From Mobula hypostoma (lineage: Eukaryota): a stretch of 64,000 nt of DNA. A model generated the notes under the pieces. It was not told the DNA's origin. It searched no databases and worked only from the letters and a program-made list of their open reading frames with translations. Below, piece by piece: positions 18,011-62,059 of this stretch (its first letter is position 1; every line of letters starts with the position of its first letter). The stretch is from contig NC_086097.1 of the NCBI RefSeq assembly GCF_963921235.1, forward strand, positions 131,008,001-131,072,000, given 5' to 3'. Position numbers and translations under genes: made by a program.

Positions 18011-18369
18011 GAGCAAAACTTTCGTAGTTCATTTCCAAATCACATTTTGGATCAAAATTTTATAGACCGAGCTTGAGTTTACACTATCCATGTGTTAATC
18101 CGTGAGCTAATGCACTTAAAGGCAGAGATACGAATTAAGGTATACAGCTGAACCGGAATCCCAAATGAACTTAGATACCTCATGAATTACAAAAGGTGGC
18201 ACTTTTCCACAGCTATACTGGGTAGCATGTCAAACTACCAAGTACTTGTACTTCCCCAATTATCAGTTTTTGAAGGCAGCACAGATCAGGTTCTCTTCCC
18301 ACAGGATCAATAAATGGAAGATTGGCACAGCAGAATGATATTTTGGGGAAACAACGCTTTGTAAAATAT

Positions 18370-18948
18370 CGCAACCACGAGGAATTCTGCAGATGCTGGA
18401 AATTCAAGCAACACGCATCAAAGTTGCTGGTGATCCACGGCCTCCTCTACTGTAAAGTTGAAGCCACACTCAGGTTGGAGGAACAACACCTTATATTCCA
18501 TCTGGGTAGCCTCCAACCTGATGGCGTGAACATTGACTTCTCTAACTTCCGCTAATGCCCCACCTCCCCCTCATACCCCATCCGTTATTTATTTATATAC
18601 ACACATTCTTTCTCTCTCTCTCTCCTTTTTCTCCCTCTGTCCCTCTGACTATACCCCTTGCCCATCCTCTGGGTTCCCCCCCACCTTGTCTTTCTCCCTG
18701 GGCCTCCTGTCCCATGATCCTCTCATATCCCTTTTGCCAATCACCTGACCAGCTCCTGGCTCCATCCCTCCCCCTCCTGTCTTCTCCTATCATTTTGGAT
18801 CTCCCCCTCCCCCTCTCACTTTCAAATCTCTTACTAGCTCTTCCTTCAGTTAGTCCTGACGAAGGGTCTTGGCCCGAAACGTCGACTGTACCTCTTCCTA
18901 AAGATGCTGTCTGGCCTGCAGCGTTCACCAGCAACTTTGATGTGTGTT
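18370..18948 (+). mobile_element. Penelope-like insertion: short inverted 3' end (18370-18433) joined to a 5'-truncated sense copy (GIY-YIG C-terminus, UTR, hammerhead)
   Basis: 14-bp TSD gctttgtaaaatat at 18356-18369 and 18949-18962. Peptide RLEEQHLIFHLGSLQPDGVNIDFSNFR*. Confidence 0.9.
18852..18887 (+). ncRNA. Minimal type I hammerhead ribozyme motif (intact core) in a Penelope 3' end
   Basis: AGUC-CUGACGA-A-GGGU(CUUG)GCCC-GAAAC-GUC-GACU: stem I AGUC/GACU, stem II hairpin, palindromic ACGU in place of stem III. Predicted cut after C18883. Confidence 0.85.
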
Positions 18949-21015
18949 GCTTTGTAAAATATTCAAAGTGCTGAGAGAAAATGTTTGTCAAGTGATACAT
19001 TAAAAGGCTCAAAAAACATAATACTGCATATTCAGAAGGTATTTGCAGAAAATAGCATGCTTTAAATTAAAGCTTGGTTAGATGACAAGTACTCAAACTT
19101 AGCTCCAGTAGGTAACAGTACACTGCTTTTACAACCTTGATTACTAAAAGGAAATGAACATTCACTTTTTGTAAAATGAGAAACATTTATAAAGAAAAGA
19201 AAACATTACACTCAAGGCTGCCAAGACTTCATGTACAACAAATAGAGTACTGAATTACCAGCCTGCATAGCCAATATGCCAAAGCGACTAAAAATACAGT
19301 AAACAATAGCAATGGCAAGCGCATCAAACATGCTTTTTAATTACACAGAGGATGTAACTTTTTTTATTTGATGAGGTACTGGCTGATCTACACCACTTCC
19401 TATCCCTGATTCCCTTAATTCCTTAGCCTTGACATCACTCTATCCAAAAATTTAACACCCCTATGTGAAAATACTTCTCTTCATTCAGTACAAAATAACA
19501 TGACACTTCTTTTTGAAATTTTGGCCCTTAGCTCTTGTCACCAGCCAGAAATACTCTCCCTCTGCAATGTTAAGTCTTGCAAAAGTTTGGTTTATTTTAA
19601 TGAGCTCACCTCATTCTCAAATCAACAGAATTATCTCTCCAAACTTCCCCTCATATGTGAGGCCTGCCATCCCAAGAAGCACTCTAATGAACCTCCCTTC
19701 CCTCTATAGCAAGAATACCATATACTTGCCATGTCAAGAGGCCAAAATTGTACTCCATACTCCAGGCTCTAATTATCTTTAGCCTTGTATTCAAATCATC
19801 GTGCAATGAAGGCCAAAAGACTTCCTAAATGCCTGCAGGACTTGGATTAGTTTTCACTGACTTTGTACAAAGGCACCAGGTTCCTTGGAACATCAAAAAT
19901 ATTAAAAATACTCAGTACTTTGTTATTTTTTTCCTATCAAAAGTGGGTAACCTTTCACTTTCTACATGGTACTCCACCTGCCTTGTTGCTGCCCACTTAT
20001 TATGTACACCTGAAGACTAGTTACATCTTCATCACTACTCTTCTATTTAGGTTTAAATAGCAAATTCACTTTTGTTGTCCAGTATTAAAAAACTTGTCAT
20101 AACTATTTTCCTATTTGAAGTTTCCAAGGACAAAGTGATATACAGGGAAAAAATTAAAAGTGAACATTTTTAATATATATGAATTATAATGAGGAATAAT
20201 GAATTAATATCTTTGACAACTAACAGAAATATCCTGATGCTCATGAAATTCTGAGCTTAGCTAAAATCGAGTCCAAATACAGTTAATACAATTTGGCCAA
20301 TAGTCCTCAAGTCAAAGGTTATGGAGAGAAGGCAGGAGAATGGGGTTGAGAGGTAAAATAAATCAGCCATGATTAAATGGCGGAGAAGATTCGTTGGGCC
20401 AATGCCCTAATTCTACTCCTATGTTTTACAGATAGAAAGAACAGACCACAGCACCAAATTACAAAGGGTGAATGTCATACTGATGAGTACTACATAGCAG
20501 CTTGGAATTATGACATACAACATAACAACCCAACCTTCCTTTGCCATGGTGAAGAGAAGCTTCACAAGCTGATATTTTAGCAATTAGCAGTTTCCAGCTC
20601 ACAAATTGCATCTCACTCTCTTTACTCAAATTTAAAGAATATCTCACTTCAATGAAAGCACGGCAGCTTTTACAGGATTAGCCTCAAATCAGCAATCACA
20701 TTGAGATAAATCAGAATTTTTTAATCAGTAAGTGTTTTTGCAAACTTATCCTTCAGGTACTTGATTATCTTTCCAGTGCCAGTTTACAGACACATTTCCA
20801 TCTTACATCCTGAAACATGGATAGCCAAGGCAAAGGTCAACCAAGTGACCTACACTGTTCTGGAGTTAGGATATACAGCAAATATTAATTTCACCAGCAA
20901 CCACTCTTCAGACTTGAACGTGGATTGTAGACTGAATTTAAAATGCAACCCTGAACTATAGATTATCTGGAGCTTCAGAATGGTGTTCATTGTAAACCAG
21001 ACAAAGCTGATCAAT

Positions 21016-23622
21016 ACGCAAATACGGGGAAATCTGCAGATGCTGGAAATTCAAGCCACACACACAAAAAATGCTGGTGAACACAGCAGGCCAGGCAGCA
21101 TTTATAGGAAGAGGTACAGTTGACTTTTTGGGCCGAGATCCTTCGTCAGGACTAACTGAAAGAAGAGATATTAAGAGATTTGAAAGTGGGAGAGGGAGGG
21201 GGAGATCTGAAATGATAGAAGACAGGAGAGGGAGGGATGAAGCTAAGAGCTGGGAAGTTGATTGGCAAAAGGGATACGAGGCTGGAGAAGGGAGAGGATC
21301 ATGGAACAGGAGGCCTAGGGAGAAAGAAAGGGGGAGGGGGGTAAGGTAGAGGATGGGCAAGGAGTTATAGTGAGAGGAACAGAGGGAGAAAAAAGAGAGA
21401 ACAAAGGGGGGGGGAATAATAAATAAATAAGGGATAGGGTACGAAGGGAAGGTGGGGCATTAACGGAAGTTAGAGAAGTCAATGTTCATGCCATCAGGTT
21501 GGAGGCTACCCAGACGGAATATGAGGTGTTGTTTCTCCAACCTGAGTGTGGCTTCATCTTAACAGTAGAGGAGGCCATGGATAGACATGTCAGAATGGGA
21601 ATGGGATGTGGAATTAAAATGTGTGGCCACTGGGAGATCCTGCTTTCTCTGGCAGACAGAGCATAGGTGTTCAGCGAAACGGTCTCCCGGCCTGCGTCGG
21701 GTCTCGCCAATATATAGAAGGCCGCATCAGGAGCACCAGGCGCAGTATATCACCCCAACCGTCTCACAGGTAAAGTGTCACCTTGTGTAAGTGAAAAGGG
21801 GGTTAGAGTATGGGATAGGAAGGGTTAGATGGTGTATGTGACCTGGAAAATATAGCAGGGGCAGGAACTAAACAGAACCAGACACGGTTAGGATGTTGCA
21901 ACGGCATGCTCATTTCTTAGAATAGAGGTGCTTACTGACCTGTACCTCTGCACGTGAAGCTATTGTGACCATGATGAAATTGCTAACCACAAAACCGTCA
22001 CAAGCGTGGACAGGGGAAACAGGTGCTAACTGAAACCTTTTTCTCTGGATATAAATGTAACCTTGTACTTGTGCTAGGCAGAGCTGATTGCCAGACGCTG
22101 TAGAAGCGCATGGTGGTTACCTCTCCTCGGATCAAATTAAATGAAGAATTGATCGAGCCAAAACGTGGCCTCTGGGTGTTTTCTCCGACTGAATAACAAA
22201 TCGGTAAGGACAGCCACACATGGAAGGACTGTCTGGGGCCCTGAATGGTGGTGAGGGAGGAAGTGTAAGGGCATGTGTAGCACTTGTTCCGCTTACAACG
22301 ATAAGTGCCAGGAGGGTGATTGGTGGGGAGGGATGAATGGACAAGGGAGTCGCGTAGGGAGCGATCCCTGTGCAAAGCAGTGGGGGGGGGGGGAGGGAAA
22401 GATGTGCTTAGTGGTAGGATCCCGTTGGAGGTGGTGGAAGTTACGGAGAATTATATGTGGACCCGGAGGCTGGCGGGGTGGTAAGTGAGGACAAGGGGAA
22501 CCCTATTCCTAGTGGGATGGCGGGAGGATGGGTGAGAGCAGATGTGTGTGAAATGGGAGAGATGCGTTTGAAAGCAGAGTCGATGGTGGAGGAAGGAAAG
22601 CCCCTTTCTCTAAAAAAGGAGGACATCTCCTTCGTCCTGGAATGAAAAGCCTCATCCTGAGAGCAGATGCAGCGGAGACGGAAGAATTGCGAGAAGGGGA
22701 TAGTATTTTTGCAAGAGACAGGATGGGAAGAGGAATAGTCCAGGTAGCTGTGACAGTCCGTAGGCTCATAGTGGATATCAGTAGATAAGCCGTCTCCAGA
22801 GATAGAGACAAAAAGATCAAGAAAGGGGTGGGAGGTGTCGGAAATGGACCAGGTAAACTTGAGGGCAGGGTGAAAGTTGGAGGCAAAGTTAATGAAGTCA
22901 ACGAGCTCAGCATGCATGCAGGAAGCAGTGCCAATACAGTCCTTGATGTAGCGAAGGATAAGTGGGGGACAGATACCAGTATAGGCTTGGAACATGGATT
23001 GTTCCACAAAGCCAACAAAAAGGCAGGCATAGCTGGGACCCATACGGGTGCCCATGGCTACACCTTTAGTTTGGAGGAAGTGGGAGGAGCCAAAGGAGAA
23101 ATTATTAAGAGTAAGGACTAATTCCGCTAGACGGAGCAGAGTGGTAGTAGAGGGGAACTGGCTAGGTCCGAAATCTAAAAAGAAGCGGAGAGCTTTGAGA
23201 CCTTCCTGGTGGGGGATGGAAGTATATAGGGACTGGACATCCATGGTGAAAATAAAGCGGTGGGGGCCAGGGAACTGGAAAAAATTCACAGCGTGAGAAG
23301 TGTCACGAACATAGGTGGGAAGGGATTGAACAAGGGGGAATAAAGCAGTGTCGAGGCATGCAGAAATGAGTTTGGTGGGACAGGAGCAAGCTGAGACAAT
23401 GGGTCTACCTGGACAGGCAGGTTTGTGGATCTTGGGTAGGAGGCAGAAACAGGAAGTGCGGGGTGTGGGAACTATAAGGTTGGTAGCAGAGGCTGTGAGA
23501 TCCCCTGAGCTGATAAAGTTGGCGATGGTGTGAAAGACAATGGCCTGGTGCTCCTTAGTGGGGTCATGATCGAGGAGTAAATAAGAGGAGGTATCCGCGA
23601 GTTGTCGCTGTGCCTCGGCACG
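21016..23622 (-). mobile_element. Penelope-like retroelement (Neptune-type), 5'-truncated: RT, Cys linker, GIY-YIG endonuclease, 3' UTR with degenerate hammerhead
   Basis: RT: FTMDVQSLYTSIP, QTKGVAMGTRMGPSYA, RYIKD (YIDD mutated). Linker: GTYRCKRNKCYTC. EN: GVIYCAWCS*CGLLYIGETRRR...RFAEHL. Stop at 21460-21462. Possible TSD gctgat(c/t)aat at 21006-21015 and 23623-23632. Confidence 0.93.
21784..22220 (+). mobile_element. Solo LTR (~435 bp) nested in the Penelope element
   Basis: Absent from the paralogous Penelope at 651-680. Ends TGTGT...ACACA. TATAAA at 22050-22055 and ATTAAA at 22136-22141 in U3-R-U5 order. No clean TSD. Confidence 0.75.
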
Positions 23623-25422
23623 GCTGATTAATGTTCATCTTGGCACCTGAAGTGTGGGTGCCAAAGAAGAAAGTATTTGAGAACTGTATGTAATTCAAAG
23701 GACGTGTTGTAAATACATTGTAACTATAGAAATGTTCAGCATATGTCATGTAATATTGGGTCGAGCAGGCCTCTTCCTCCAAGTGTATCTCAATATGATA
23801 ACTGCTGCTCATTTTAATGAATAAAATACATCTATTTCCACTAGCTTCAGTGACTTTGTTCACATTGGGGGCTTTTCCAGGATACTTACATGACCCATTG
23901 GCCGGCAATTTCAGCAGTCAAGGTGGGTCAGTATTTTTAAAATTAGCACTCTCACATAGATCTGTTTGGGTCAGTGACTACTGGATCACGAGGTATCATG
24001 AACACAGTGGAGACCTGAAATAGTAGATATGAAAGGAGTGTGGGGGGGGGGGGGTGTGTGTGTGTGTGTCTGTTTATGTAAGAGACTAAACATTTGTATG
24101 CTAATTTGGTGAGACAGGGTCATCAGTTGTGAAGGATTGTTACTGACTGGTCAGGACGCCAGTGGAGTGTATGTTTACTCGTTTGAGGATCTGTACAGTA
24201 TCAGATGTGTTTGAGAGTGTTTTTGTTGCTTTAAGAATAAGTCCAACTTTTAAGTGCAAAGGAATACAACAGGCATTGAGTTCAGATGCACGAGTGGCAG
24301 ATTGCAGAGTATGTACTCTGAAGTTTCAAGTATGTACTGGCTAATTTTTATCCATCATTTATATCTTGCATAGTGTGGGAATTAATGTGGACATATTTGA
24401 GGAGAAGTTATACCCAGATATATCTGTCGAGACAGTATCGACTGAGGTTAGGCAACATCAGACTGAGGACTCTGACAACCCAAGCTAGCCCTTGACCTTG
24501 ATTATGACCATCCATAAGCCCTTCATCCCCAGGAAGCAGGGTACTTTGTCAGAGTTGTCCTCAGTTAAGGTCATTTGCGGGAACGCAGAATTTTGGCGCA
24601 AGCTCAAGTAAGTGATTGAAATTCACCTGATACACCCTAAAGATCTGATGTGTTGTTAAAAGCAAAGTGCCCAAGGAATATGTGGGACAGTATGGCTCAG
24701 GGGATGTAGATGGTACGTGGGCAATTACCAGGAACACCAGCAATAAAGAAAGACATCGTTTCTTTAAGGGCGAAGTGTGGCAGCGACTGGGGAGAGGTGA
24801 GAGTAACTGGGAAACAATAATGTCAGTGGTTCAGAGAGCTGATGAGCCTGCCATGGATTATGCAAAATGTAAATAGATAGATATACTTTATTAATCCCGA
24901 GGGAAATTTGGTTACATTGTATCCAGTGTATGGAGAGTATTCAGGATTGGATACAGGTTTCCCCCGCCATCCAAAGGTACAGCATTCCAATGAAACGGTT
25001 CGTAAGCCGAAATGTCGTAAAGTGAAGCAGTTACCATTTATTAATATGGAAAAGATTTTTGAGCGTTCCAGACCCAAAAAACAACCTACCAAATCATGCC
25101 AAATAACACATAAAACCTAAAATAACAGTAACATATAGTAAAAGCAGGAATGATATGATAAATACACAGCCTATATAAAGTAGAAATACTTTTTGCAATC
25201 ATTGAAGCACCACCTAGCGCAGCGAAGATCTCACGCATGCACTCTCGGCAGAAACACTCTCAGCAGAAACACTCTCTCCAGTAACCTTTAAGCTATGAGG
25301 CTGCCAAATCGTACCAAATAACAAATCATACTAAATAACACAAAAATACACAGCCCATATAAAGTAGTAATACTTTTTGCAATCATTGAAGCACAGACTA
25401 GCGCAGCGAAAATCTCACGCAT

Positions 25423-25645
25423 GCGCTCTCGGCAGAAGCACTGTCGGCGCAGGCGCTGTCGGCTGAAGGCACTGTTGGCGCAGACACTGTCGGCTGAAGG
25501 CACTGTCGACGAGACACTGTCAGCTCAAGGTGCTGTCGGCTGAAGGCGCTGTCGGCTGAAGGTGCTGTCGGCTGAAGGCGCTGTCAGCTGAAGGCACTGT
25601 CGGTGGAAGGCACTGTCGGCGCAGGCGCTGTCGGCGGAAGCACTC
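25423..25645. repeat. GC-rich 15/16-bp minisatellite (~13-14 units, gc(a/g)ctgtcggctgaag) within duplicated blocks of the Tigger 3' region
   Basis: Direct reading. The flanking block ccaaatcataccaaataac...ctatataaagtag recurs near 25090, 25305 and 25675. Confidence 0.88.
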
Positions 25646-25808
25646 TCTCCAGTAACCTTTAAGCAACGAGGCTGCCAAATCATACCAAATAACAAATCAT
25701 ACTAAATAACACAAAAATACACAACCTATATAAAGTAGAAATAATGTATGTACAGTGTAGTTTCACTTACGGGAATCCGGATGGTGTGTTAGGCTGAGTC
25801 GTCGGAAA

Positions 25809-27586
25809 TTAGGGTGGTGGAGGTAAAGGAGACTGGGGTGTCATCTCATCGTAGTCTGTTTCCAATAGGGTAGCCAGGTCATCATCTTCTATGTCTGCCT
25901 GCCTCAATGTCGAAGGTCGAGGTTCGTCGTTTGCTGTGGCTGATGTGCAAGACTTGAAAAACGGCAGTATACTTGACTGTTGAGCCTCGCACATTTTTCT
26001 ATCATACAGTTCTTCGTAAGCACTCAAAACATCCTGCAAACCTGCCCTAAACCTACGTGCCCTTTCAAAATTAAAGTCATACTTTTCTGCAATCATTGCA
26101 GCGAAAATCTCAAACAACCGCTTCATGTTCAGTACCTGGACGACTTCATTTTCACTACTGCGTTTGGTTTCGATTGTTAATCTTTCCTCTTGCAATTGCA
26201 TCAGCTCTTCATCTGTCAATTCCTGGTCATGGGATGCCAAAACCTCCTCAACATCATCTTCGTCAACTTCCACAAACCCAGCCTCCTTAGCCAAGCTTAC
26301 TATTGTCGTATTTATTGTTGATGGTTCGAAGCCTTTAAAATCGTTCACTGCTTCGGGACACAGTTTCTTCCAAACGCCATTTCTCATCGAGACTGTTAGC
26401 CTATTGAGAGCATCTCCAATGTTGACGATTGCCAGTTTTACATTTGTAGACTTTCCACATCTCTTGCAAAGATGCTTCAGAGTTGCCCTCTGTCAACAGC
26501 ACTTACAATAAAATCCATCACATTTTGCGTATAGTAAGCCTTAATTGTGGCTATTAGGCCTTGGTCACACGGCTGCAGCAACGATATCGTATTCGGCAGT
26601 AAGAACGTAACACGAATGTTACTGCCATACTCAGTAATGGCAGGCGAATGAGCAGCACAATTATCAACAATCACAAGACACAAGGTTATTTTCTCTAGAG
26701 TATTTTTCAACGAAAGGACTAATGTATCTGCTCATGTACTCAGAAAAAAGCACTTGGGTGTTCCAACTGCTTGGATGTGAACGGAACACAACAGGAAGTG
26801 TTTTCTTATCGACGCCTTTTAAGTGCCCTCGGATTTTCTGAATGGTACACTAGTAGAGGCTTAAGGACAGCATCACCAGTGGCGTTAATAATAGGCATTA
26901 GGGTAAACCTGTTCTTCGATGCCTTGTGTCCCTTAGCCTGCTTTTCTTCTTTCAAAATAAATGTCTTACTCGCAATTTTTTCCAATAAATTGCAGTTTCG
27001 TCACAGTTAAACACTTGCTTATAAGAATAACCACCTTCTGTAATTATTTTCTTCAGTTCTGCTGGAAACCTGTCAGCAGCTTCAGTGTCAGCCGAAGCAC
27101 TCTCTCCAGTAAACGTTAAACTATGAAGCTGCCCTCGCCTCAGAAACCAATCAAACCACCCGTGACTATCTTTAAATTCCACTTTCGCAACACTTTCATC
27201 ACCATCAGCCAGTGCTTTCTGTTTCAGCTTATTAAAAAGACTGACTGATTTCTCCTTAAGTACAAGATAAGTTAAAGGAACACCACGTTTTGTACACCCA
27301 TCAATCCACTCAAGCAATAGACTTTCCATTTTATCCATTACTGTACTGGATGCCGACTAAGAGAGACCACTTTGCTACGAGCAGAACCAACAGTAACATC
27401 GCCAGCTTTCAACATTTTTTCTCCCTGCGTATAAATAGTGCGAATGGTGGATGCAGGCAAGTTCAACGCGTGGACAATGTCCTTGCTTCGTTCACCACGA
27501 TCGAAACGCTTAATTATGTCTAGTTTTACGCAAAGTGTAACACCCTTACGAGCTCTTTTAGGCTTTTCGGATACTTTAGAACTCAT
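25809..27586 (-). pseudogene. Tigger/pogo transposase (psq HTH, CENP-B HTH, DDD domain), frameshifted
   Basis: MSSKVSEKPKRARKGVTLCVKLDIIKRFDRGE, FKDSHGWFDWFLRR, QVFNCDETAIYWK, IVDNCAAHS, LPNTISLLQPCDQGLIATIKAYY, acidic tail. Split over several frames. Confidence 0.92.
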
Positions 27587-30205: not shown

Positions 30206-32090
30206 CTGTTTTCAAAAATTAAACAACATTATGCTAGCACCATCAATAAATTCTGGATGTGGTATTAATTCAAATATACTAAGGCGTTTGTAATGATTCT
30301 TGGCTACAAGACAAAGCTTTAATATTGTATTAGCTCTATGATATTCATATACATACAAGTGTAAACAATGTAATCAATACCACACTTACAAACTATATCC
30401 TTTACAGGCCCACTTTTAATTGCAATCTACATCACCTTGGTGCAGTTTGAAACAAGAAGTAGCCATCCCTTGAAATGATTCCTTCTGTTGAGGCCCCACC
30501 CCCATCACCATGACCTTCATACAAAATCACTACATCTCAGGATTTTCACTTTATGCAATTCTGCAAAAACTGGTAGAACAAATCTGAAATCCATCAACTC
30601 CAGAATTACAATTCATGGCTTTCTGTGGCCAACTGCTGGGGAGGGCAGGTCATAAGGAAATACAAACTTCTTAAGAAAACTTGAACATGTGCCCAGTGGG
30701 GCAATTTATTCCCCTTTATGCACACGTTTAACAATTCATCATTCATATAGCTCTTTCCACTGTTGTCACCCCTGATATTATTTTTGATTTTTTTTTTACT
30801 TTTTTTTCCTCTAGATGACAGATCCCATGCTACAGCTCTACAGTTTTGCAGTATGACCTGGCACAAAACATCAGTCAATTCCCTTCAATACAAGTTCAGG
30901 AATTTCATTTACTGAATACATCAAAACAATAAGGTGGTTAATAGCATGCATACTTTCCAGTAAAATAGTTCTGTGGATACAATATCAACCTCTTGAGAAA
31001 ACTCAAAATACTTTTGCTTATTCCTGTTTATATTTAAGGTTTTGTTTACCCCCATATAAAGTTGGAGTTTGTGTTTTGCACAAAATGACCATGAAAGCTG
31101 AGAGAAACCACTTTAGTCTCTTTTTTTAAAAAAATGGCCACTCCTGACTTTTCATAAAGCCCTAACCAATTTATTACATATGCATACAAGGCAAGTATTG
31201 TGAGGAATACATTGAAACCCAGTAATAAATTATTGAACACATTACACGAGGACTACAACTATCAATAAAAGTCATTAGCAATTTTGACACTAAATCATTC
31301 AGCTAAAATTTCAAAGATAGAGTTTTCTAATGAAAGGTCATCAGTCTGAAAAGTCAACACGATTTTTCTCTGCAGATGCTGCCTGACAATGATTTCAGTG
31401 ATTAAATTACTGGACTAACAATACTGAGGCACAGATTTGAACCAACCACAACAGCTGACGAACTTAAATTCAGTTAATTTAACAAATCTTAAATTAAAAT
31501 ATTAAAATTTATGAGATTTCCTGGTGGTGGCTGATGGAATAACAGCCATGTGCCATTGCTCCAACGTTAATTATCTTACTATTTCCAACCTGTCTTGATA
31601 CTTCTTTTTTAAGTGTGATATTCTTTCATTATGGGTGGAAGGAGTGCCAGAGGTACTAAAAAGGATGATTTTCCTGCCTCTTTGGATTCTATTATGGAAT
31701 TGCTGCAAAGTCATACACGAGAACCTCTGACAAGTTTCAACAATTCAGCACTGAATTTAAACAAATAGATGGTAAATTGGACTTTATCCAACAAACTCGT
31801 AATGAACACGATAAATGTATTAAAAATAATGAGGAAAATTTGTTGGCTCTGGAAACAGAAGTGGATGAATTGCAGAAGCTTTGTGAAAAGCAATCAGAAG
31901 TCCAAGGAAAGGTTAAGACAGAAGATTATCGACCTAGAAAACAGAAATAGAAGGAACAACCTACAGGTTCTGGGTCTCGAAGAATTAATCAAAGGTAACC
32001 ATCCTATGGAGTTTTTTGCAAACTTTTTGCAAGCATTATTTCCAGAGATTTTGACGTCTGTGCCTATGATCCATCGAGTTCACAGATCTC

Positions 32091-32310
32091 AAACAACAGG
32101 AATTCTGCAGATGCTGGAAATTCAAGCAACACACATAAAAGTTGCTGGTGAATGCAGCAGGCCAGGCAGCATCTCTAGGAAGAGGTGCAGTCGATATTTC
32201 AGGCCGAGATCCTTCGTCCATGGGTCTCAGCCTGAAACGTCGACTGCACCTCTTCCTACAGATGCTGCCTGGCCTGCTGCGTTCACCAGCAACTTTTATG
32301 TGTGTTGCTT
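32091..32310. mobile_element. Penelope-derived head-to-head hairpin insertion in L1 ORF1
   Basis: 15-bp TSD gagttcacagatctc (32076-32090 and 32311-32325). 89-bp arms 32124-32212 and 32222-32310 with 6 mismatches by my count; 9-nt loop inside the hammerhead region. Confidence 0.93.
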
Positions 32311-33392
32311 GAGTTCACAGATCTCCTGTGTTTAGACCTCCTAACGTTCAGAGACCAAGATCAGTAATAATCTGTTTTCAGGAATTTAAAACAAAGGAAC
32401 TCTTAATTCGCAAATGTCGTCTAAGAGGCATGATTGACTATAATGGTCGCAAGATTAGATTTGTTGAAGATTATTCGCCTGAGGTTATGCAGGAACGTGT
32501 TAAGTTCAAAGAAGTTATGTCCGAGCTTTTTAATATGGGTTTCAAACCTTCCCTTCACTACCCAGCCCGACTCAGAATCACACTTAAAAACGGTTCTTTC
32601 GAATGGTTCCGCTCGACTGTTGAAGCATAAAAGTTTTTAAAATCTGAAGGCTAACTACTTAGTTTCTCCTTACATGAAGACACAAGATTAAATGAGAAAC
32701 TTTTAATTCGCAAATCCCGTCGAAGGGGTATGATTGGTGAAAGGGTGGAATACTAAGATTCTCAAAAGATTATTCGCTTGAGGTTATACAGGAATGTGCT
32801 AAATTTAAACAAGCTCTGCTGGAATTTTTTTAACAAGAGTTTTAACCCATCCTTTGGCTACCCAGTTTGACTGAGAATCTCATTAAAGATGGATCCTTCG
32901 AATGATTTCATTTGAATGCTGAAGCACAAAGATTATTTTAATTTGAAGGCTAATTACTTAGTCTGTTTTTCCACGAAGATATAAGATTAATGTTCAATGC
33001 CTATCTGTATGAATAATTGTATCTTTTACTTTTGGTAAACCTTTCTAACTAATTTCCTTTAGTATTTTTTAATACTGTATTTTTTATATACGAGAATTGA
33101 ATCTCTTGTTTGGGTATTGTTTAGTCTGGGCTGGAATATAAATAACCTTGAAACTAATTGGAGCAATCACCAGGTTTTTTGGGGGGGTTGTCCATAGTTT
33201 GTAGATGCTGACTTTCTATTGGTCGGTTTTATTTCTTTGGGAGGTGGGTGGTGTTATGGTTTCAAAGCTGCTTTCAAATTTTTAGCCAACTTGTTGCTTG
33301 GTTACCATTTCTCAAGGTTTATGGCTTGGTTTTTAACTTACATTTTAATCCTTCCTTTAAGTACTATTAAAAATGGACCAAACTATTAATTT

Positions 33393-33531
33393 TAAACAAA
33401 AACAACAGGAATTCTGCAGATGCTGGAAATTCAAGCAACATACATCAAAGTTGCTGGTGAACGCAGCAGGCCAAGCAGCATCTATAGGAAGAGGCGCAGT
33501 CGACGTTTCAGGCCGAGACCCTTCGTCAGGA
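33393..33531 (-). mobile_element. 139-bp Penelope 3'-end unit (hammerhead + tail) inserted just after the L1 ORF2 start
   Basis: 14-bp TSD caaactattaattt (33379-33392 and 33532-33545). Confidence 0.92.
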
Positions 33532-33532
33532 C
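33499..33532 (-). ncRNA. Minimal type I hammerhead ribozyme motif (intact core), same strand as ATP9B pre-mRNA
   Basis: Minus strand GUC-CUGACGA-A-GGGU(CUCG)GCCU-GAAAC-GUC-GAC. Stem I is only 3 bp. Confidence 0.75.
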
Positions 33533-36500
33533 AAACTATTAATTTACTCAGTTTTAACATGAAAGGGTTAAATCACCCTGTTAAACATAATAAGATTTTT
33601 GCTTATATTAAGAAATTTAAGGTCCTTTTTTTTTAATACAAGCAACTCACATATGCAAATGTGATAATCCACATTTTTTTTAGCTGTTGGAACAGACTTT
33701 GTTTTCACTCTTCTTTTCAGGCCAAAGCTAGAGGAGTTTCCATTCTTATAGATAATATATTTTCTTTTGTCCAACATAGTGTCTGATACTAATGGATGTT
33801 TTGTTATAGTTTCAGGAAAACTAGATAATAAATTAATAGTATTTGCCAATGTGTATGCCCCAAATATAGATGACCCAGGATTCTTTGATCACTTTTTTTC
33901 TGTTTTCACCAGATCTGAATCTTTATTCTTTGGTGATGGGAGGAGATTTTAACTGTTGGTTAGACCCCATTTTAAAACAATCATCTTCTAAACCAGCGTC
34001 TCTTAATAAATCAGCTTTGTTTATTCAATCCTTTTTATTGAAGTGTGGTATAGTTGATGTTTGGCATTTTTTACATCTTTAGATAGGGAGTATTCATTTT
34101 TTTTCCTATGTTCATCGCACATATTCCAGGATTGATTTTTTTTTTACATCGATAGTCAAATGATTTCATCAGTTCGTTCCTGTGAATATAAAGAGATTGC
34201 TGTTTCAGATCATGCTCCTATATTTTTATCTTTAAAACTCCCTGGTCTTCTTCAAACCAACAGATTTTGGCGTTTTAATACAACTTGGTTATCTGATAAG
34301 GAATTTTTTAAATTTCCACAGAGGCATATTATTTTATGTTTTGAAGAGAATAAAAAGAAAGAGACTTCTAATCTTATTGTACGGGATACTTTCAAGGCCT
34401 ATATTAGAGGACAAATTATTTCTTATACTGCGAGTGTCAAGAATAAAGCTAATAAAGAAAGAAATGAATTGGCCAATCATTTAAAACAATTAGATCAAAA
34501 ATATGCTCTCGCTCCAGATCCTGTTTTATATAAAAGACGTGTTGAAGTTAAAACTAAATATGATCTTCTGTTAACATATCCAATTGAAACTCAACTTTTT
34601 ACAGATAAAACTCAATTTTACATTAATCATTTTACATAACTCAGGCAAAGTATTGGCCAACCAATTAAAAACTTCTGTAGTTAAACGACAAATTAAAGAA
34701 ATTTACAATACTAATGGTGATAGGACAACTGATTACTCTGAAATAAATGATACCTTTAGAGAATTCTGTTCTAAACTTTATAGTTCTGATTCCCCTAAAG
34801 ATAATACTGTAATGAATAATTTTCTAGAACAATTAAATATCCCTGCACTTTCTGCAGATAATTGCAAACAGATGGATCAACCCATTTCTTATGAGGAAAT
34901 CGCCAAGGCTATACGTTCATTACACTTGGGGAAGGCTACGGGTCCAGATGGATCTTCTGGAGAATTTTATAAGGCTTTTTCTTCATTAATTAAACCGCAG
35001 TTACACATAGTTTTTTTGGATTCTTTCAAATTGGTAGTTTGCCTCAATCTTTTTATGAAGCTTCTATTTCACTTATCCTAAAAAAGAACAAAGATCCAAC
35101 TGAATGCTCTTCATAGAGGCCAATTTCATTACTTAATGTAGATACTAAAATTCTTTCTAAAGTTCTGGCTTGTAGGATTGAAAATATTTTACCTTCTATT
35201 ATTTCTGATCAACAGACTAGATTTATTAAAAACCAACATTCCCATTTTAATATACGCCATGTATTAAATGTTACTTACCCTCCTTCTCAGGAGATATCGG
35301 AATGTGTGATATTCCTGAGATGCTGAGAAGGCCTTCGATCGGGTTGAATAGATTTATTTAAAACCTTAGAAAAATTTCATTTTGGACTAGATTTAATTCA
35401 ATGGATTAAATTACTTTATTTATCTCCTTCTGCTCGGGTTCTTACTAATTTTCAAAATTCCAAACTATTTAAACTTCACCACAGAACTAGACAAGGCTGT
35501 CCGTTGAGTCCCTTACTTTTTGATTTAGCTTTAGAACCCCTTGCCATTGCTTTGCGAGAATCTAATGATATCTGTGGCATTTTAAGGAGAGGTATCACCC
35601 ACAAAATCTCGCTTTACGCTGATGATATATTGATTTTTATCTCTAATGTTGAGACCTAGTTACCTTGTGTACTTTCTTTACTTTACCGTTTTAGCCAATT
35701 TTCAGGATATAAATTGAACCTACATAAGAGTGAATTATTTCCTTTAAATAATTTGGTATCAATTAATACTAATCTCCCTTTTAAAACTGTAAGGAATCAA
35801 TTTACTTATTGGGTGTAACAATCACGAAGAATTACAAACATCTGTTTAAAGAAAACTTTCTTACTTTATTGAACCATGTAAAAAAGATATTATTAAATTG
35901 GTCACCTCTTTCAATATTGTTGATTGGATGAATTAATTCTATTAAAATGAATATTCTACCTAAATTTATATATGTTTTTCAGGCTTTACCCGTTTTTATT
36001 CCTAGATCCTTTTTTGACTCTCTTGAATCTATTTTATCCTCCTATATATGGAAAAATAAACGTCCTTGTTTAAAGTTCATCTTCAAAAATCTAAAAAGTC
36101 TGGAGGTTTAGCCTTACATAATTTTAGGTTTTATTACTGGGCAGTTAATATACGATATCTTACGTCTTGGCTATATTATATTAATCGTGTAGACTGTCCA
36201 GTATGGGTTTCAGAAGCTAATTCTGTCAATAAATTTTCTATTATTTCTCTTCTTGGACCCTTACTTCCTTTATTTGTAAGTAAATTAACTGATAATTTAA
36301 TAGTTAAACATACTCTGAGGATCTGGATACAATTTAGAAAACATCTTAGTTTATTGAGATTTTCCCTTTCTACTCCCATTTATTCTAATTTTTTTTAAAC
36401 CCTCCATGACTGATTTAGTCTTTAAAGAATGGGACAGGTTGGGTATTAAGTGTTTTTGGGATCTGTTTGTTGGAGGAAATCTTTTTTCATTTGAGCAATT

Positions 36501-37789
36501 GTCAGCTAAATATAGCCTACCCAAAACTCATTTTTTTTTTTAGATCTCTACAAATCAGAGACTTTCTAAGATCTCAATTATGCACATTTCCTATAAGCTC
36601 AGATAAGAACATACTAGACATAATTTTTTAAATTTGACACCTTTTTATAATGGTTCAATATCTAATATTTATGGTATGTTACTGGAGACCAGGAATGTTC
36701 CTTCAGACAAAATTAAGAATCTCTGGGAACAAGATTTACAGACATCAATATCTGAGGAAACTTGGAATGAAATTTTTAAACTGGTTAATACTTCATCGCT
36801 ATGTGCTCGCCATTCCTTCATACACCTTCATACAATTTAAGGTGGTACAGAGAGTCCATATGACTAAAGATAAGCTAACTCGTTTTTATTCGGATATATC
36901 TCCCTACTGTGACAGATGCAATAATGGAGAAGCTTCATTAATTCGTATGCTTTGGACTTGTCCATGTCTTGTAAAATATTGGAAGGAAGTTTTTCAAACT
37001 TTTTCTTTACTTTTCAAAGTCAATTTTAAGCCTAATCCTCTGATGGCCCTATTCGGTATTGTTGCAGGACAAGATATCAAGTTGAAGACATCTGATTTAC
37101 ATATTTTGGCCTTTAGCTCTCTTATAGCTAGGAGGGCGCTTTTGTTTAAATGGAAAGATTTTTCTCCTTCTACTCATGCTCAATGGTTATGCGACGTTAT
37201 GTCATGCTTAGATTTAGAGAAGATTCGCTGTTCAATTTCTGAATCTCGTCAAGACTTTCAAACATTGTGGGGACCCTTTCTGAATTATTTTCAAAACCCT
37301 CAATTCGTTGTTTAAATTTAGATGTTGGCTATTATTAATTTTTATTATACGAGAAGGTATTTTATCTTTTTTTCTCCTTAATAAACAGCTTCAGTCTTGG
37401 TAGGGGTTAGACTCTTTTTTTTGTAATAAATTAGTATATTTCAATATAACTTTGACTAACCTATATAAATACGGGGTAATGAGATTGTTATTATGAATAG
37501 ATATACTATAATGTAATTGGTAGTTGCTTTTTTCGACATTATATATACTTTCTTGTATTCTGTATTCTTCTATCTAGAAACTAATAAAAATATTGAAAGA
37601 GAATTTACAATGATGATGGAACTGCTAGGCTATCATAAAAACATGTCATTGCAACAAAAACAACTTCCATTTTCCAATTTATCCACATGCCAGGTAGATT
37701 GGCCACTTACAAATTATCCCTAGTATGGGGATGGTAGGAGAATCAGAGAAATAGATGTGTGAGAGATAATAGTTTATGGGAAGGTTGTC

Positions 37790-47340: not shown

Positions 47341-47493
47341 TAGTAGTGCTGGTAATCAATCATTTTTTACTCGTCCCCCATGCACCTCCAGTAAGTGAGA
47401 ACTAAATTTAATGCCATTAGTCTGAAAGTAACACATTTGATGAGTCTGCAATCCTAGTCTACTCAAATTGTATAAAAACATCAACAAAGTGAG

Positions 47494-47597
47494 TACAGTC
47501 CTGTTGAAGGGTCTTAGTCCAAAGCATCAACTATTTACTCTTTTCCATCAATGCTAACTGGCCTACTGAGTTCCTCCAGCATTTTGTGTATGTTGTT
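47494..47597 (+). mobile_element. Short Penelope 3'-end unit with degenerate hammerhead
   Basis: cagtc-ctgttga-agggtcttagtcc-aaagcatc...ccagcattttgtgtatgttgtt. Imperfect TSD aacaaa(g/a)tgag at 47483-47493 and 47598-47608. Confidence 0.75.
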
Positions 47598-47754
47598 AAC
47601 AAAATGAGATTAAAACCAAAAGCAATCCAATTCAAAGGATCAAATATAATCAAGTTGTTTGTGGCATTAAAAAGTCACCTCAGAATGGAAAAGTAGCAAA
47701 AAAAAGATCAAGGGAGCAAACTTTACAACAATACAAGTTTTCATGATTTGGACC

Positions 47755-52256: not shown

Positions 52257-52767
52257 AAGTACTTGCACAAGCTCTGACTGGACTGCAAGGGGGGAAATCT
52301 CTGCTGATCTCCAGCCAATGCTGTTCCCTCCATAATCGCCACCATTTGTTTCTCCACTGCCCTCCGTTAACTACTTGCTGTCCTACTCCGCACAAATTGC
52401 TTGTGTTTTTCAGTAAACAATGGTGATTCCACTGAGGCCAGAAGCTGAGTCCTGGAGATGTGAAATACTTACAGTACATAAGCAATGTGACATGATGGAA
52501 GAATTGGTCTTCTGGATTTTTTCTTTAATGAATATGGTACCAGAGGAACTCCGGCTCTATTGTTAACTGTACATAAATCAGAGCTTAAGGTATGACAACG
52601 TACTTGCAATTTAATTGTCTGGGCAGCTTGGAGAATTTGTGGACCTTCATGTGCTTGTTGTCTTTGTCCTTTCAACTGGTAATAAGCAAGATATTGTTCA
52701 GCTTGCAAGTACTGCCAAAACATTGGTAAGCTGTTGTTGTGTGAAAACTAGCCAATGCATTTCCAAA

Positions 52768-53023
52768 CAACACACACAAAATGCTGGAGGAACTTAGCAG
52801 ACCAGGCAGCATCTATGGAAAAGCATACAGTCAATGTTTCGGGCCGAGACCCTTCAGCAGGACTGGAGAAAGAAATATAATTTCTCCAGTCCTGCTGAAG
52901 GGTCTTGGCCAGAAACATCAACTGTACTCTTTTCCATAGATGCTGCCTGGCCTACTTCGTTCCTCCAGCATTTTGTGTGTGTTGCTTGAACTTCCACCAT
53001 GTGCAGATTTTCTGTCGTTTGTG
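52768..53023. mobile_element. Penelope-derived head-to-head hairpin insertion with two back-to-back hammerhead motifs (second subfamily)
   Basis: 14-bp TSD aatgcatttccaaa (52754-52767 and 53024-53037). Arms 52768-52871 and 52881-52984; 9-nt loop. Cores CUGCUGA...GAAAC at 52828-52865 (-) and 52887-52924 (+). Confidence 0.92.
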
Positions 53024-53125
53024 AATGCATTTCCAAATGCTGCATCAATGACTGTGCCTCAAAGTAACTCCATATGGAGATTGGGTAACACAGTTTTTTT
53101 TTTCCACAGAAAGGGATGAGTCATA

Positions 53126-57576: not shown

Positions 57577-59176
57577 CAGTGTCTTGAAAAAATATTCAGC
57601 CACCAACCCTTTGTTCACAGAAATAGGCATTACAACCAGGGATTTGGAGCAATTTAACTGAGAATTCTTATTTGTGAATCACATGCTCCTTTTTCACAGC
57701 AGAGCCCACCCCCCCCAAAAAAAAGAAAACAGGGAAAACTCTGGAGTATGAGAAATGGAAGATTCAAAAACTGAAATGTCAGCAGTTCCAAAGTGTTCAT
57801 CCCCCTTTGCTCAGTTGTACTACCTATTGCAACTATTACAGCCAGTAGTCTTTTTTGGATAAGTTTTCTATTAGCTTTGCACAATGAGATGGAGCAAGAT
57901 TCACCTATTCCTCCTGCAAAGTTGCTCAAGTAGTGCCAGGTTAGTTGGGGAGCTGTGGTGGACAGCAATTTTGAAGTCTTGTCTGAAACGTTCGATCAAG
58001 TTCAGGACTCTGACTGGGCCACTCATGGACATCAATTTTCTTCAATTGAAACCACTCCATGGTTGCTCTGACAGTGTATCTTGGGATGTTGTCCGCTGAA
58101 AGACTAAGTTCCTCCTCAGTTTAAGCTTTCTGGCAGAGGCTAGCAAGTTTTACCAGGATCTCTCTGTATTTAGCAGCATTCATCTTCACATCAATCCTGA
58201 CCAGATTTCCAGTTCTTGCTGCTGAAACCATCCCCATAACACAATGCTTCCTCCACCATACTTTATGATAGGGATGGTGTTACCTGGTTGATGCGCAAAT
58301 CTAGATTTACGCCACATGTACCACTAAAAAAAAAGCCTATCCTTGCCAAAAAGACTTTGCAAAGTGTCACTGAGAAGATACTGTTAAGATGTGGAAGAAT
58401 GTCCGATAAGACTAAAGTGGAACTCAGTGGCCACAACACTAAATAGTACGTGTGCCGTAAATCTAATACTGCACATCAGCCAGGTAACACCATCCCTACT
58501 GTAAAGTACGGTGGAGATAGCATCATACTATGGCATGCTTTTCAGCAGCAAGAACTGGAAATCTGGGCAGGATTGAAGGAAGGATGAATGCCACTAAATA
58601 CAGAGAGATCCTGGATAAAAACCTGCTAGCTTCTGCCAGAAAGCTTAAACTGGGGGCGAAATCTGTCTTCCAGTAGGACAATGACCCAAAGCACACTGCT
58701 AGAGCAACCATGGAATGGCTTGCAATGAAGAAAATTAATGTCCTTAAGTGGCCCAGAGTCCTGACCTTCATGTGATCAAACATTTCTGGTAAGACCTCAA
58801 GGTTGCTGTCCACCGCAGCTCCCCAGCTAACCCGGCAGAGCTTGAGCAATTTTACGAGGAGGAATGGGCAAATCTTGCTCCATCACATTATGCAAAGACA
58901 AAAGAGACTTAACCAAAAAGACTACCAGCTATAAGAGCTGCAAGTTTGTTCAGCTAAGCATTGAGCAAAGAGGTATAAACATTTTCTACTGCTGACATTC
59001 CAGTTTTTCAATTCTTAGTTTTTCATGTTTTACAATTTTCCGTTATTTTTAGCTCTACTGTTAAAAGGCCATGTGATTCACAAGTAAAAATATTGAGTTA
59101 AATTGATCAAAGTCCCTGGTTGTAGTACTCATTTACATGAACAGAGTTGGGGGCTGAATACTTTTTCAAAGCACTG
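57577..59176. mobile_element. Tc1-family DNA transposon derivative, 1600 bp, fold-back (two inverted copies of the 3' half)
   Basis: TA at 57575-57576 and 59177-59178. Ends CAGTG..TTGAAAAA.TATTCAGCC. Plus strand 58330-58945 gives a transposase remnant ([33 protein letters not shown]). The left arm 57577-58327 is its reverse complement. The host Rex1-type fragment resumes across the TA. Confidence 0.92.
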
Positions 59177-59729
59177 TAAATAGAGTCCATGGAAGGGAAA
59201 CTGGAACAGTTCCATATTGTAGAATCATGTCTCAAACTGTTACAGTGAGATTAATATTAACTAATCAACCAATTTTGTGACAAATTTTCTGAAATGCAAT
59301 TTTTTTTAAAAAAATAGGTTTTAAGTGTGATTAGGAATGCAAAATCATTTTGATTCCAACTAACTGCAACTTATCAGTTTGCATTGTATTTTGGGGGAAT
59401 TGCATACATTTAAGACAAGTCATAATAAAAATAGAGCAAATGACAATCTGCTGGAAAAACTCAGCAGATCGAGCTGTGGGAAAAACCTGTCAAGTTCTTG
59501 TAGCAGATTGTGCGTTGCTGCAGTTTCCAACATCTGCTCTTTCTTGTGTCATTAATAAGAATAGTAGCCCATTTCAAAAAAACCGGAACCTTTCCTATTT
59601 GGAGCTCCAAGCCACACCTTTTTAATATGATAGCACAATTGTTAAGTACAACAGCATCTAAATTACTTTTTATTCAAATTTAGTTCAGGTAGGTGAACAT
59701 GTTTGATCAATAACTTTGAATTTCCATAA

Positions 59730-60515: not shown

Positions 60516-60589
60516 CAATTTTACCATGTTTCAATGTAAATGTGACAATTCAGGATAATCTTTAAAAAGGAAGGAAAAGTTGAAGACAG

Positions 60590-61475
60590 TTAAAGTTCAA
60601 ATTAAATGTTATTCTCCAAGTACATACATGTCGCCATATGAAACATTCAGATTAATTTTCTTGTGTGAATACTCAACAAATCTATACAATGAATTTTTGG
60701 ACACTACCTCACTTATTTTAAATATACAGTATTTCTGTTTTTGCACGTTTTTTGATCTATTCAGTATACGTAATTGGTTTACTTGTTTATTTATTATTAT
60801 TATTTTATTTTTTTCTCTCTCTGCTAGATTAAGCATTGCATTGAACTGCTGCTAAATTAACAAATTTCACGTCACATGCCGGTGACAATAAACCCGATTC
60901 TGATTCTATAACAGAATTAATGAACGCCCATCCAACAAAGCAAGTCCACAGATTGTGGAAATATTTCAATATCAGGGCAAGTGAATTTGAGCGAAATTAT
61001 CCCCTTAGAGCCTGACGGTTGAGGTGTACTAACTGTTCCTGAAACAGCTGGTCCCTGATGATGGACACTCTGCTTTCCTGCGATAGTGTTTCATGTAGAT
61101 GTGCTCAATGGTTGGCAGAATTTTACCCATGATGGATGGGATGTGTCCATTCCTTTTGTCGTAGGATTTTCTGTTCAAGAATATTGGAGCTTCCATAACA
61201 GACAATGATGCAGCCAGTCAATATATTCTCCAATACACATCTAAATTTTTGTTGAACTTTTAGATGTCATGCTGAATATCCGCAAGCTTCAAAGAAGCAG
61301 AGACACTGCAGTGTTTCCTTCATAATTGTACTTATGGACCAAGCTCAAGGCAGGTCCTCCAAGAAAATAACACACAGTAATTTAAAGTTGTTAACCCTCT
61401 CTGTCTCTTATCCTCCGATGAAGGCTTGCTTATGTATCTCTGGATTCCTCCTCTTGCAGTCTATAATCAGCTCCT
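60590..61475 (-). mobile_element. Rex1/Babar-type 3' fragment with a nested opposite-strand tail (~60690-60908)
   Basis: Reverse complement resembles 13430-13530 and 48760-48880. The nested piece ends caataaacccgattctgattct. Confidence 0.65.
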
Positions 61476-61486
61476 TGGTTATTTAT

Positions 61487-61943
61487 ATTCCGTCTAAGTA
61501 GCCTCCAAACTGATGGCATGAACATTAACTTCTCTAACTTCCGCTAATGCCCCACCTCCCCCTCGTACCCCATCTATTATTTATTTATATACACACATTC
61601 TTTCTCTCTCTCTCTCCTTTTTCTCCCTCTGTCCCTCTGACTATACCCCTTGCCCATCCTCTGGGTTTTTCCCCCTCCTCCTTTTCTTTCTCCCTGGGCC
61701 TCCCGTCCCATGATCCTCTCATATCCCTTTTGCCAATCACCTGTCCAGCTCTTGGCTCCATCCCTTCCCCTCCTGTCTTCTCCTATCATTTTGGATCTCC
61801 CCCTCCCCCTCCCACTTTCAAATCTCTTACTAGCTCTTCCTTCAGTTAGTCCTGACAAAGGGTCTCGGCCCGAAACGTCTACTGTATCCCTTCCTAAAGA
61901 TGCTGCCTGGCCTGCTGCGTTCACCAGCAATTTTGATGTGTGT
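61487..61943 (+). mobile_element. 5'-truncated Penelope 3' end with a mutated hammerhead (CUGACAA)
   Basis: 15-bp TSD tccttggttatttat (61472-61486 and 61944-61958). Highly similar to 18490-18948. Confidence 0.9.
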
Positions 61944-62059
61944 TCCTTGGTTATTTATGTTCTCTATATTCACATAGCATTGTACTGCTACCATCAAGGT
62001 AACAAATTTCACGACATATGCCGATATTAAACTTGATTCTAATTCTATTGTGTATGCTT

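What the first reader, a model, noticed from the sequence alone, without database searches (positions are those of the whole stretch)
18356..61958. Penelope insertions end at only two fixed points and have 14-15 bp TSDs: a candidate two-site, target-primed internal initiation system
Seen: seven insertions can be bounded. Outer ends fall either at the distal terminus after ...catctgcaga..ttc(c/t)...(gt)tgttt (18370, 21016, 32091, 33393, 53023) or ~35-40 nt upstream, right after ...tgtgtgtt(gctt) (18948, 32310, 47597, 52768, 61943). At most of the internal-site junctions the target resembles the element's own continuation gcttgaattt (gcttt, gagtt, tccttg, tttggaa). All three two-armed insertions (18370, 32091, 52768) use one site on each side. 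Exact TSDs are 14, 15, 14, 14 and 15 bp. Known: PLEs use a GIY-YIG nuclease and often show inverted pseudo-LTRs. Inference: both nicks of a ~14-15 nt staggered cut prime reverse transcription, at two GU-rich sites of the RNA, guided by target microhomology.
Basis: partly seen in the sequence, partly recalled or inferred. Interest (0 to 1): 0.75.

Follow-up and report, generated by a model that had tools for sequence, protein, structure and literature searches.

The report
Penelope retrotransposon with two start sites
These are broken copies of a Penelope-type jumping gene whose ends fall at two spots 31-44 bases apart and are mostly flanked by 14-15-base duplications, which fits the two-start-site copying already shown for a lizard Penelope element, with a weak hint that the cut DNA likely pairs with the element's RNA at one of the two spots.

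Summary
The observation largely holds. Five insertions have exact TSDs of 14, 15, 14, 14 and 15 bp. Three more have decayed 14-bp repeats (11 of 14 letters). One 14-bp TSD is confirmed by empty-site contigs in three runs. The 3' ends fall in two windows, not at fixed points (internal 6 nt wide, distal 8 nt wide), and one arm fits neither. I found a fourth two-armed insertion that also uses one site per side (4 of 4; chance 1/16). The element is a Penelope-like retrotransposon (PLE) with a Neptune/Nematis-type Cys linker, RT, GIY-YIG nuclease and minimal hammerhead. The proposed system is mostly published. Frangieh 2024 showed both strands nicked and extended, with two internal RT start sites bounding the 30-40-nt tail. 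Craig 2021 notes the tail at one end only. What differs here: GU-rich rather than AC-rich sites, a near-constant 14-nt stagger, and target-element similarity at the internal site (17 of 24 letters, P 0.0003). Two held-out older junctions did not show it (5 of 12, P 0.27). The genome-wide check confirmed the distal end but was inconclusive for the internal one.

The parts
18356..18962 (.). Insertion A: 14-bp TSD 18356-69/18949-62; left arm 18370-18433 (minus, distal end, 64 nt); right arm 18434-18948 (plus, internal end, 515 nt). The first 4 TSD letters also fit the element.
21002..23632 (-). Insertion B: longest copy, 21016-23618, distal end, 5'-truncated inside RT; decayed 14-bp TSD (11 of 14)
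22531..23622 (-). PLE reverse transcriptase region of B (56-58% identical to full-length RT-EN homologues)
22217..22507 (-). Thumb-to-nuclease linker of B with CX4CxxC motif (Neptune/Nematis type); frameshifted relative to RT, with a stop
   Evidence: motif definition in PMC8557442
21472..21777 (-). GIY-YIG endonuclease region of B, with stops, separated from the linker by a nested insertion of about 435 bp
32076..32325 (.). Insertion C: 15-bp TSD (14 if one letter is the element's); left arm 32091-32218 (minus, distal), 3 extra letters, right arm 32222-32310 (plus, internal); hairpin with 9-nt loop; nested in an L1-like element
33379..33545 (-). Insertion D: 139-nt single arm 33393-33531, distal end, 5' end at the hammerhead edge; 14-bp TSD confirmed by empty-site contigs
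   Evidence: joint 33378-33532, 14 shared letters, in 3 of 3 contig runs
33497..33533 (-). Minimal hammerhead motif (stem I, CUGAnGA, stem II, GAAAC-GUC, stem I'), 65 nt upstream of the internal site counted from the predicted cut
   Evidence: pattern match; no Rfam hammerhead hit; activity untested
33393..33436 (-). The optional tail between the internal and distal end windows
47481..47609 (+). Insertion E: single arm about 47495-47595, internal end, decayed 14-bp TSD (11 of 14); no microhomology excess
52754..53037 (.). Insertion F: 14-bp TSD; left arm 52768-52871 (minus, internal), 9-nt spacer, right arm 52881-53023 (plus, distal); second subfamily
59421..59564 (.).
61472..61958 (+). Insertion G: single arm 61487-61943, internal end; 15-bp TSD, with 1 letter fitting the element at the 3' junction and 4 at the 5' junction
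17122..17216 (.). Piece H: two-armed, distal end on the left; right arm stops about 35 nt before the internal site; no TSD found (exception)
2505..2568 (+). Old tail-only piece 2511-2562, distal end, only a 6-bp flanking repeat
17682..17758 (+). Piece J: decayed arm ending near the internal-site region, unbounded

Best explanation
These are 5'-truncated copies of a Penelope-like retrotransposon with a Neptune/Nematis-type linker whose 3' ends fall in two narrow windows 31-44 nt apart and mostly carry 14-15-bp duplications, likely because its GIY-YIG nuclease nicks both DNA strands about 14 nt apart and the freed ends likely prime reverse transcription at two internal RNA start sites. Shown here: family identity, TSD lengths, end clustering, and one site per side in 4 of 4 bounded two-armed copies. 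Shown elsewhere (anole PAc, in vitro): both strands nicked and extended, and two start sites bounding the tail. Inferred: one nick has an A/T-rich preference (distal targets read ATATT, ATTGA, GAGAT, AAATT, AATGC, ATTAA) and primes the distal site. The second nick falls at a set distance and primes the internal site, possibly helped by loose 4-6-nt pairing. The two cDNAs are then joined head to head by end-joining. If only one end primes, a single arm with or without tail results.
For: Family. TSDs; empty-site joint with 14 shared letters in 3 of 3 contig runs. End clustering: 6 of 6 bounded, and P 8e-5 with misfits. Paired arms differ by 40, 33, 39 and 31 nt (counted), the published tail length. 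Single-armed G and E end at the internal site with full TSDs, which needs priming there. In A the tail arm is 64 nt and the other 515 nt with no hairpin junction, so neither arm can be a fold-back copy of the other. In related genomes position 33400 is a top loose end with mixed A/T-rich flanks (696, 562 and 524 contigs, agreement 0.4). In-register similarity at the internal site: 17 of 24, P 0.00026; 22 of 36 with older copies, P 0.0003.
Against: No biochemistry on this element. 'One site per side' in 4 of 4 has chance 1/16. H's right arm fits neither window, and the piece at 2511 has only a 6-bp repeat. No internal-site position is among the 18 loose-end rows shown (696 hidden). Of 24 contig pieces shown, 6 have 20 or more loose letters on the tail side: 2 at 33400, 1 at 33434, and 3 elsewhere (33421, 33427, 33443). 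Exact microhomology is borderline (P 0.053) and held-out junctions give P 0.27. PAc primes without homology. C and F are near-perfect hairpins with 9-nt loops, which fold-back synthesis also explains.
Confidence: 0.65

Rival explanations
1. One primed cDNA folds back on itself to make the second arm, and the tail-less end comes from nuclease resolution or template switching near the tail rather than from a second RNA start site.
For: C and F have arms that stop within a few letters of each other, with 9-nt loops (arm identity 90 of 99 and 94 of 104). Self-priming at palindromic junctions was proposed in PMC3846280. PMC8557442 ascribed the tail to nuclease resolution.
Against: It fails for A (short tail arm, 515-nt tail-less arm, non-palindromic junction) and for single-armed G and E. 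Two RT starts were mapped directly in vitro for PAc.
Confidence: 0.2
2. Two-site priming is right, but the target-element similarity reflects the nuclease or DNA-binding domain preferring DNA that looks like its own tail (or a small-sample fluke), not primer-RNA pairing; each nick picks a start site independently.
For: PAc primes without homology, with no difference in start site between strands, and the D. virilis nuclease needs the tail sequence for recognition (as reported in PMC11167929). Only 1 of the 7 mismatches in the first 6 letters of A, C, F, G is a G-U wobble, and F mismatches at the primer's last base (read). Held-out E and I show no excess.
Against: Similarity is register-specific although the break moves over 6 nt (17 matches at shift 0, at most 11 at other shifts). 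Maximal TSD lengths stay at 14-15 only if the shared letters belong to the target. Distal targets show a different, A/T-rich pattern.
Confidence: 0.35
3. The end pattern is chance or later deletion of ordinary LINE-like 3' ends.
For: Few copies; old pieces H, J and 2511 are ragged.
Against: Intact TSDs abut the tail-less ends; clustering P 8e-5 or lower; three subfamilies share the pattern.
Confidence: 0.03

Closest known systems
PAc, Poseidon element of Anolis carolinensis (Frangieh et al. 2024, PMC11167929)
   Same: Two internal RT start sites bounding a 30-40-nt tail, downstream of a hammerhead; both target strands nicked and extended; A/T-rich target (ATT); predicted dimer.
   Different: Poseidon clade. 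Start region AC-rich there, GU-rich here. Reported to prime without homology, whereas four internal junctions here resemble the element. No stagger or TSD length is given in the text parts I read.
Neptune/Nematis EN+ PLEs (Craig et al. 2021, PMC8557442)
   Same: RT plus C-terminal GIY-YIG with CX2-5CxxC linker; 5' truncation; inverted truncated copy; tail often at one end only.
   Different: Clade not fixed by a tree here; no direct partial-tandem pLTR in the window.
Adineta vaga Penelope copies (Arkhipova et al. 2013, PMC3846280)
   Same: Inverted pLTRs, a 31-bp tail on one of them, palindromic junctions, TSDs.
   Different: TSDs of 8, 9 and 10 bp or none in the passages read, against 14-15 here.
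L1 twin priming (Ostertag and Kazazian 2001; seen only as described in PMC2246262, detail recalled)
   Same: Both ends of the target break prime RT, giving an inversion flanked by one TSD. L1 primes with about 4 matching bases and tolerates mismatches (abstract of PMC3649969).
   Different: In L1 the second primer lands at variable places and the arms barely overlap (recalled). Here it is a set site, and the arms overlap by about 20-100 nt.

Membership tests
Penelope-like element, EN+ | PLE-type reverse transcriptase | tested here: met
   RVT_1 E 1.1e-4, below the curated cut-off; 569 long homologues, best 58% identical, most with RVT_1 and many with PF01541; tblastn E 4e-127
Penelope-like element, EN+ | C-terminal GIY-YIG endonuclease after RT | tested here: met
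   21472-21777 aligns to the homologue's C-terminal nuclease region, 47% identical, E 1e-20; broken by stops and a nested insert
Penelope-like element, EN+ | Inverted pLTR arms and 5' truncation | tested here: met
   A, C, F, I, H
Penelope-like element, EN+ | Direct partial-tandem pLTR upstream of the ORF | tested here: inconclusive
   No full-length copy in the window; no genome held
Penelope-like element, EN+ | Optional 30-40-nt tail, often at one end | tested here: met
   Paired arms differ by 31-40 nt
Penelope-like element, EN+ | Minimal hammerhead in the pLTR | tested here: met
   Pattern matched in 7 of 8 arms tried, cleanly in 18830-18952 and decayed in others; Rfam found no hammerhead at E<=1; cleavage untested
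Neptune/Nematis clades | CX2-5CxxC linker between RT and EN | tested here: met
   CX4CxxC at 22217-22507; definition from PMC8557442
Neptune clade | RT phylogeny groups with named Neptune elements | not tested
   Homologues carry no clade names; no tree built
PAc-type two-site internal initiation | RT starts mapped at two sites on both strands | not testable with these tools
   Only the genomic footprint is seen
PAc-type two-site internal initiation | Start in an AC-rich stem-loop | tested here: not met
   Sites are GU-rich on the ORF/hammerhead strand. A hairpin over the internal site is predicted in 4 of 4 single folds, but z-scores are -0.13 to -1.95 and the alignment fold does not recover it
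PAc-type two-site internal initiation | No homology between cut DNA and start site | tested here: inconclusive
   Excess at 4 junctions, none at 2 held-out ones, distal site untestable
L1 twin priming | Second primer at variable internal places, arms nearly non-overlapping (recalled) | tested here: not met
   Fixed 6-nt window; overlaps up to about 100 nt

The most novel reading that the evidence does not exclude
Neptune-type PLEs integrate by programmed, asymmetric twin priming. A dimer makes a fixed 14-nt staggered cut. The sequence-chosen A/T nick always primes the distal site with no pairing, and the ruler-set second nick primes the internal site by loose pairing with the GCUUGAA stretch. 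Both cDNAs tend to stop at the hammerhead's 5' edge. This would explain in one scheme the tail at one end only, the inverted pLTRs and the short solo units, and would mark a clade difference from homology-free Poseidon priming.
Probability: 0.3. Interest if true: 0.55.

Novelty: new member of a known kind. Interest (0 to 1): 0.3.

Why it matters
The later steps of PLE integration (second strand, origin of inverted pLTRs, why the tail sits at one end) are described as unvalidated in the 2024 paper. A very high-copy family with a tight 14-nt TSD would let those steps be read from thousands of genomic junctions: laid depth was about a thousand times that of the L1 flank. It would also extend two-site initiation from Poseidon to a Neptune-type element. 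The core mechanism is not new; only the stagger, the coupling of the two ends and the microhomology would be additions.

Tried and rejected
No whole genome is held, so the genome-wide table could not be built. Pattern scans for more copies found 0 in viral contigs, 1 chance bacterial match in metagenomes and 0 in prokaryote genomes; a protein-based scan of viral contigs found no relative. Run X21 laid 0 reads, so it is no test. Contig depth is flat by construction and cannot show a step at the internal site. The table 5c joints at 33529-33537 (8 of 12 rows shown, 61 hidden) are confounded with the end of the reference and with subfamily divergence near 33497, so I do not count them as support for a 5' stop at the hammerhead. 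The Rfam scan gave only hairpin-driven miRNA matches on F and one weak lncRNA match. A conserved structure at the start sites was not supported by covariation (0 of 9 pairs). The E row was off by one base; it was redone and only one search is used for E. Earlier-findings look-ups by words and by sequence returned nothing. Literature searches for PLE+TSD+hammerhead+shark (0 papers), PLE+twin priming (2), PLE+TSD+Neptune (5), PLE mechanism since 2024 (1), PLE+TSDs+insertion sites (2) and PLE+microhomology (7) turned up no 14-bp PLE stagger and no coupled two-site model in the passages read; the library lacks most subscription journals. Pyatkov 2004 was not held. Structure and complex prediction were not run, since they would not bear on the stagger or on priming.

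Full report
Scope. The window is repeat-rich animal DNA. A cartilaginous fish is my recalled impression from the repeat types; no call names the organism. No whole genome is held, so the work rests on the 64-kb window, one laying of public contigs and papers.

What the element is. The long copy B (21016-23618, minus strand) encodes an RT region that hits RVT_1 weakly (E 1.1e-4, below the Pfam cut-off). It finds 569 homologues of 696-2000 residues, up to 58% identical, many annotated with GIY-YIG PF01541. Aligning two of them back to the window places RT at 22531-23622, a CX4CxxC linker at 22217-22507 and the nuclease at 21472-21777, broken by a frameshift, stops and a nested insert. The Cys linker marks the Neptune and Nematis clades (PMC8557442, passages); I did not build a tree to choose between them. 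On the ORF strand the 3' region carries a minimal hammerhead pattern (7 of 8 arms tried, several decayed), as described for PLEs (PMC6155905, passages). Rfam did not detect it.

TSDs. A search for the longest repeat at each boundary gave exact TSDs of 14, 15, 14, 14 and 15 bp for A, C, D, F and G. B, E and the newly found I have 14-bp repeats with 11 of 14 letters alike, reached by 0.3% of random pairs. For D, contigs from three runs skip 33379-33531 with 14 letters fitting either side, which is the pre-insertion state. In C and G one terminal letter also fits the element, so a single 14-nt stagger fits all five exact cases. If every shared letter were given to the element instead, lengths would be 10, 12, 13, 14 and 10 (read); the tighter maximal set favours the shared letters being target DNA. 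Against a fixed stagger: the old piece at 2511-2562 has only a 6-bp repeat (chance 0.08) and H and J have none. Passages of PMC3846280 give 8, 9 and 10 bp or no TSD for rotifer PLEs.

End points. A profile search of the window and alignments give eight distal ends (2562, 17122, 18370, 21016, 32091, 33393, 53023, 59550), six bounded internal ends (18948, 32310, 47595, 52768, 59435, 61943), one decayed unbounded arm (J) and one misfit: H's right arm, about 35 nt upstream of the internal site. Internal ends lie within 6 nt. The five listed distal ends lie 13-20 nt after CTGCAGA, in a variable-length stretch. So these are two windows, not two points. Clustering is far beyond a uniform spread (0 of 400,000 trials for 6 of 6; P 8e-5 for 6 of 8). 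All four bounded two-armed insertions pair one distal and one internal end, differing by 40, 33, 39 and 31 nt. Independent choice would give that 1 time in 16.

Beyond the window. laid 68,001, 43,758 and 14,179 contigs from three runs and 0 reads from a fourth. Position 33400 is a leading loose end (696, 562, 524 contigs; long, mixed, A/T-rich loose parts), which supports a family-wide distal terminus. No internal-site position appears among the 18 loose-end rows shown, with 696 rows hidden. Distal ends pile on one position because copy D has a variant terminus, whereas internal ends would spread over about 33431-33438, so this neither shows nor excludes a second peak. Six of the 24 pieces shown have long loose tail-side parts: two at 33400, one at 33434 and three elsewhere, which may be diverged subfamilies.

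Microhomology. I compared each target with the element's continuation in register, against random window sites with the same boundary-extension bias. A, C, F and G give 13 of 16 (4 nt), 17 of 24 (6 nt) and 27 of 56 (14 nt), with P 0.0002, 0.0003 and 0.002; local flanks as null gave the same, and no other register exceeds 11 of 24. Exact runs are 4, 2, 0 and 1 (P 0.053). The older junctions E and I give 5 of 12 (P 0.27); all six together give 22 of 36 (P 0.0003). The four significant junctions are the ones that prompted the idea, the held-out pair is decayed and has uncertain references, and only one of seven mismatches is a wobble. Distal targets start ATATT, ATTGA, GAGAT, AAATT, AATGC and ATTAA. 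That resembles PAc's ATT preference, but whether it is nuclease preference or pairing cannot be told, because the RNA beyond the tail is not in the window.

Mechanism. A staggered cut whose two 3' ends each prime RT explains single arms with tail (B, D), single arms without (E, G) and two-armed copies. Fold-back synthesis would explain the hairpins C and F (9-nt loops) but not A, where the tail arm is 64 nt, the other is 515 nt and the junction is not a palindrome, nor G and E. Paired arms come from the same subfamily in A, C, F and I, which is compatible with one RNP. The steps from nick to joined arms are inference.

What is known. PMC11167929 (parts 1-3 of 4 of the text read; supplementary PDFs gave only labels; figures not seen) reports that the anole Poseidon protein cleaves and extends both strands, prefers ATT, is a predicted dimer and starts RT at two internal sites that bound the 30-40-bp tail. 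It also reports no homology to the cut DNA and no difference in start site between strands. PMC8557442 (passages) says the tail is often at one end only. PMC3846280 (passages) shows a 31-bp tail on one inverted pLTR and proposes self-priming. Twin priming is known for L1 (PMC2246262, passage), and L1 primes on about four matches with mismatch tolerance (PMC3649969, abstract). PMC8969392, PMC9977147 and bioRxiv 10.64898/2026.07.22.740005 (passages) added nothing on stagger or coupling. Searches showed no 14-bp PLE stagger or coupled two-site model, but most subscription journals and the unseen figures of PMC11167929 may hold TSD data.

Verdict. This is a real, well-read footprint of a known PLE process in a new family member. 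The two-site internal initiation that gave the finding its first score was published in 2024. What remains are the tight 14-nt TSD, GU-rich sites, possible coupling of the two ends, and a microhomology signal from four junctions that did not replicate in two older ones. Interest 0.3; novel case probability 0.3, interest 0.55 if true.

Noticed in passing
window 32218, 32222, 33531, 47497, 52871, 52881, 17161: Seven arm 5' ends from five insertions fall within about 20 nt of the start of the hammerhead core, whichever site primed them, hinting at a position-defined stop or RNA 5' boundary upstream of an uncleaved ribozyme. Read data were confounded.
   Followed up: partly
window 18370-18433, 2511-2562, 59492-59550, 17122-17160: Four distal arms stop within about 25 nt of the internal site, as expected if the distal cDNA runs into a second primer on the same RNA.
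   Followed up: partly
window 32114-32320 and 52764-52988: Both symmetric two-armed copies have a 9-nt loop with a few letters that fit neither arm.
   Followed up: partly
joints 33400/33433 and 33393/33430: Seven contigs in two runs join a distal end to an internal end on opposite strands, possibly tail-to-tail copies or insertion into another copy's end.
   Followed up: no
window 33393-33445: The GU-rich words at both sites read AC-rich on the other strand, whereas the anole element's start region is AC-rich on the sense strand.
   Followed up: no
window 31769-37315: Copies C and D both sit inside one decayed L1-like element (family label from recall of the ORFs); D lies just after its second ORF's apparent start.
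   Followed up: partly
window 21776-22212: Nested insert of about 435 bp in copy B, beginning TG and ending CA with short inverted ends and no clear TSD.
   Followed up: no
window 1-1121: Older PLE copy on the minus strand, 3' end off the window, interrupted at 491-640 by another repeat's 3' end.
   Followed up: partly
window 58148-58619: 174-nt inverted repeats, 81% complementary, unrelated to the PLE; probably a DNA transposon remnant.
   Followed up: no
window 25451-27643: 16-bp tandem repeat next to ORF fragments that look like a Tigger/pogo transposase (label recalled).
   Followed up: no
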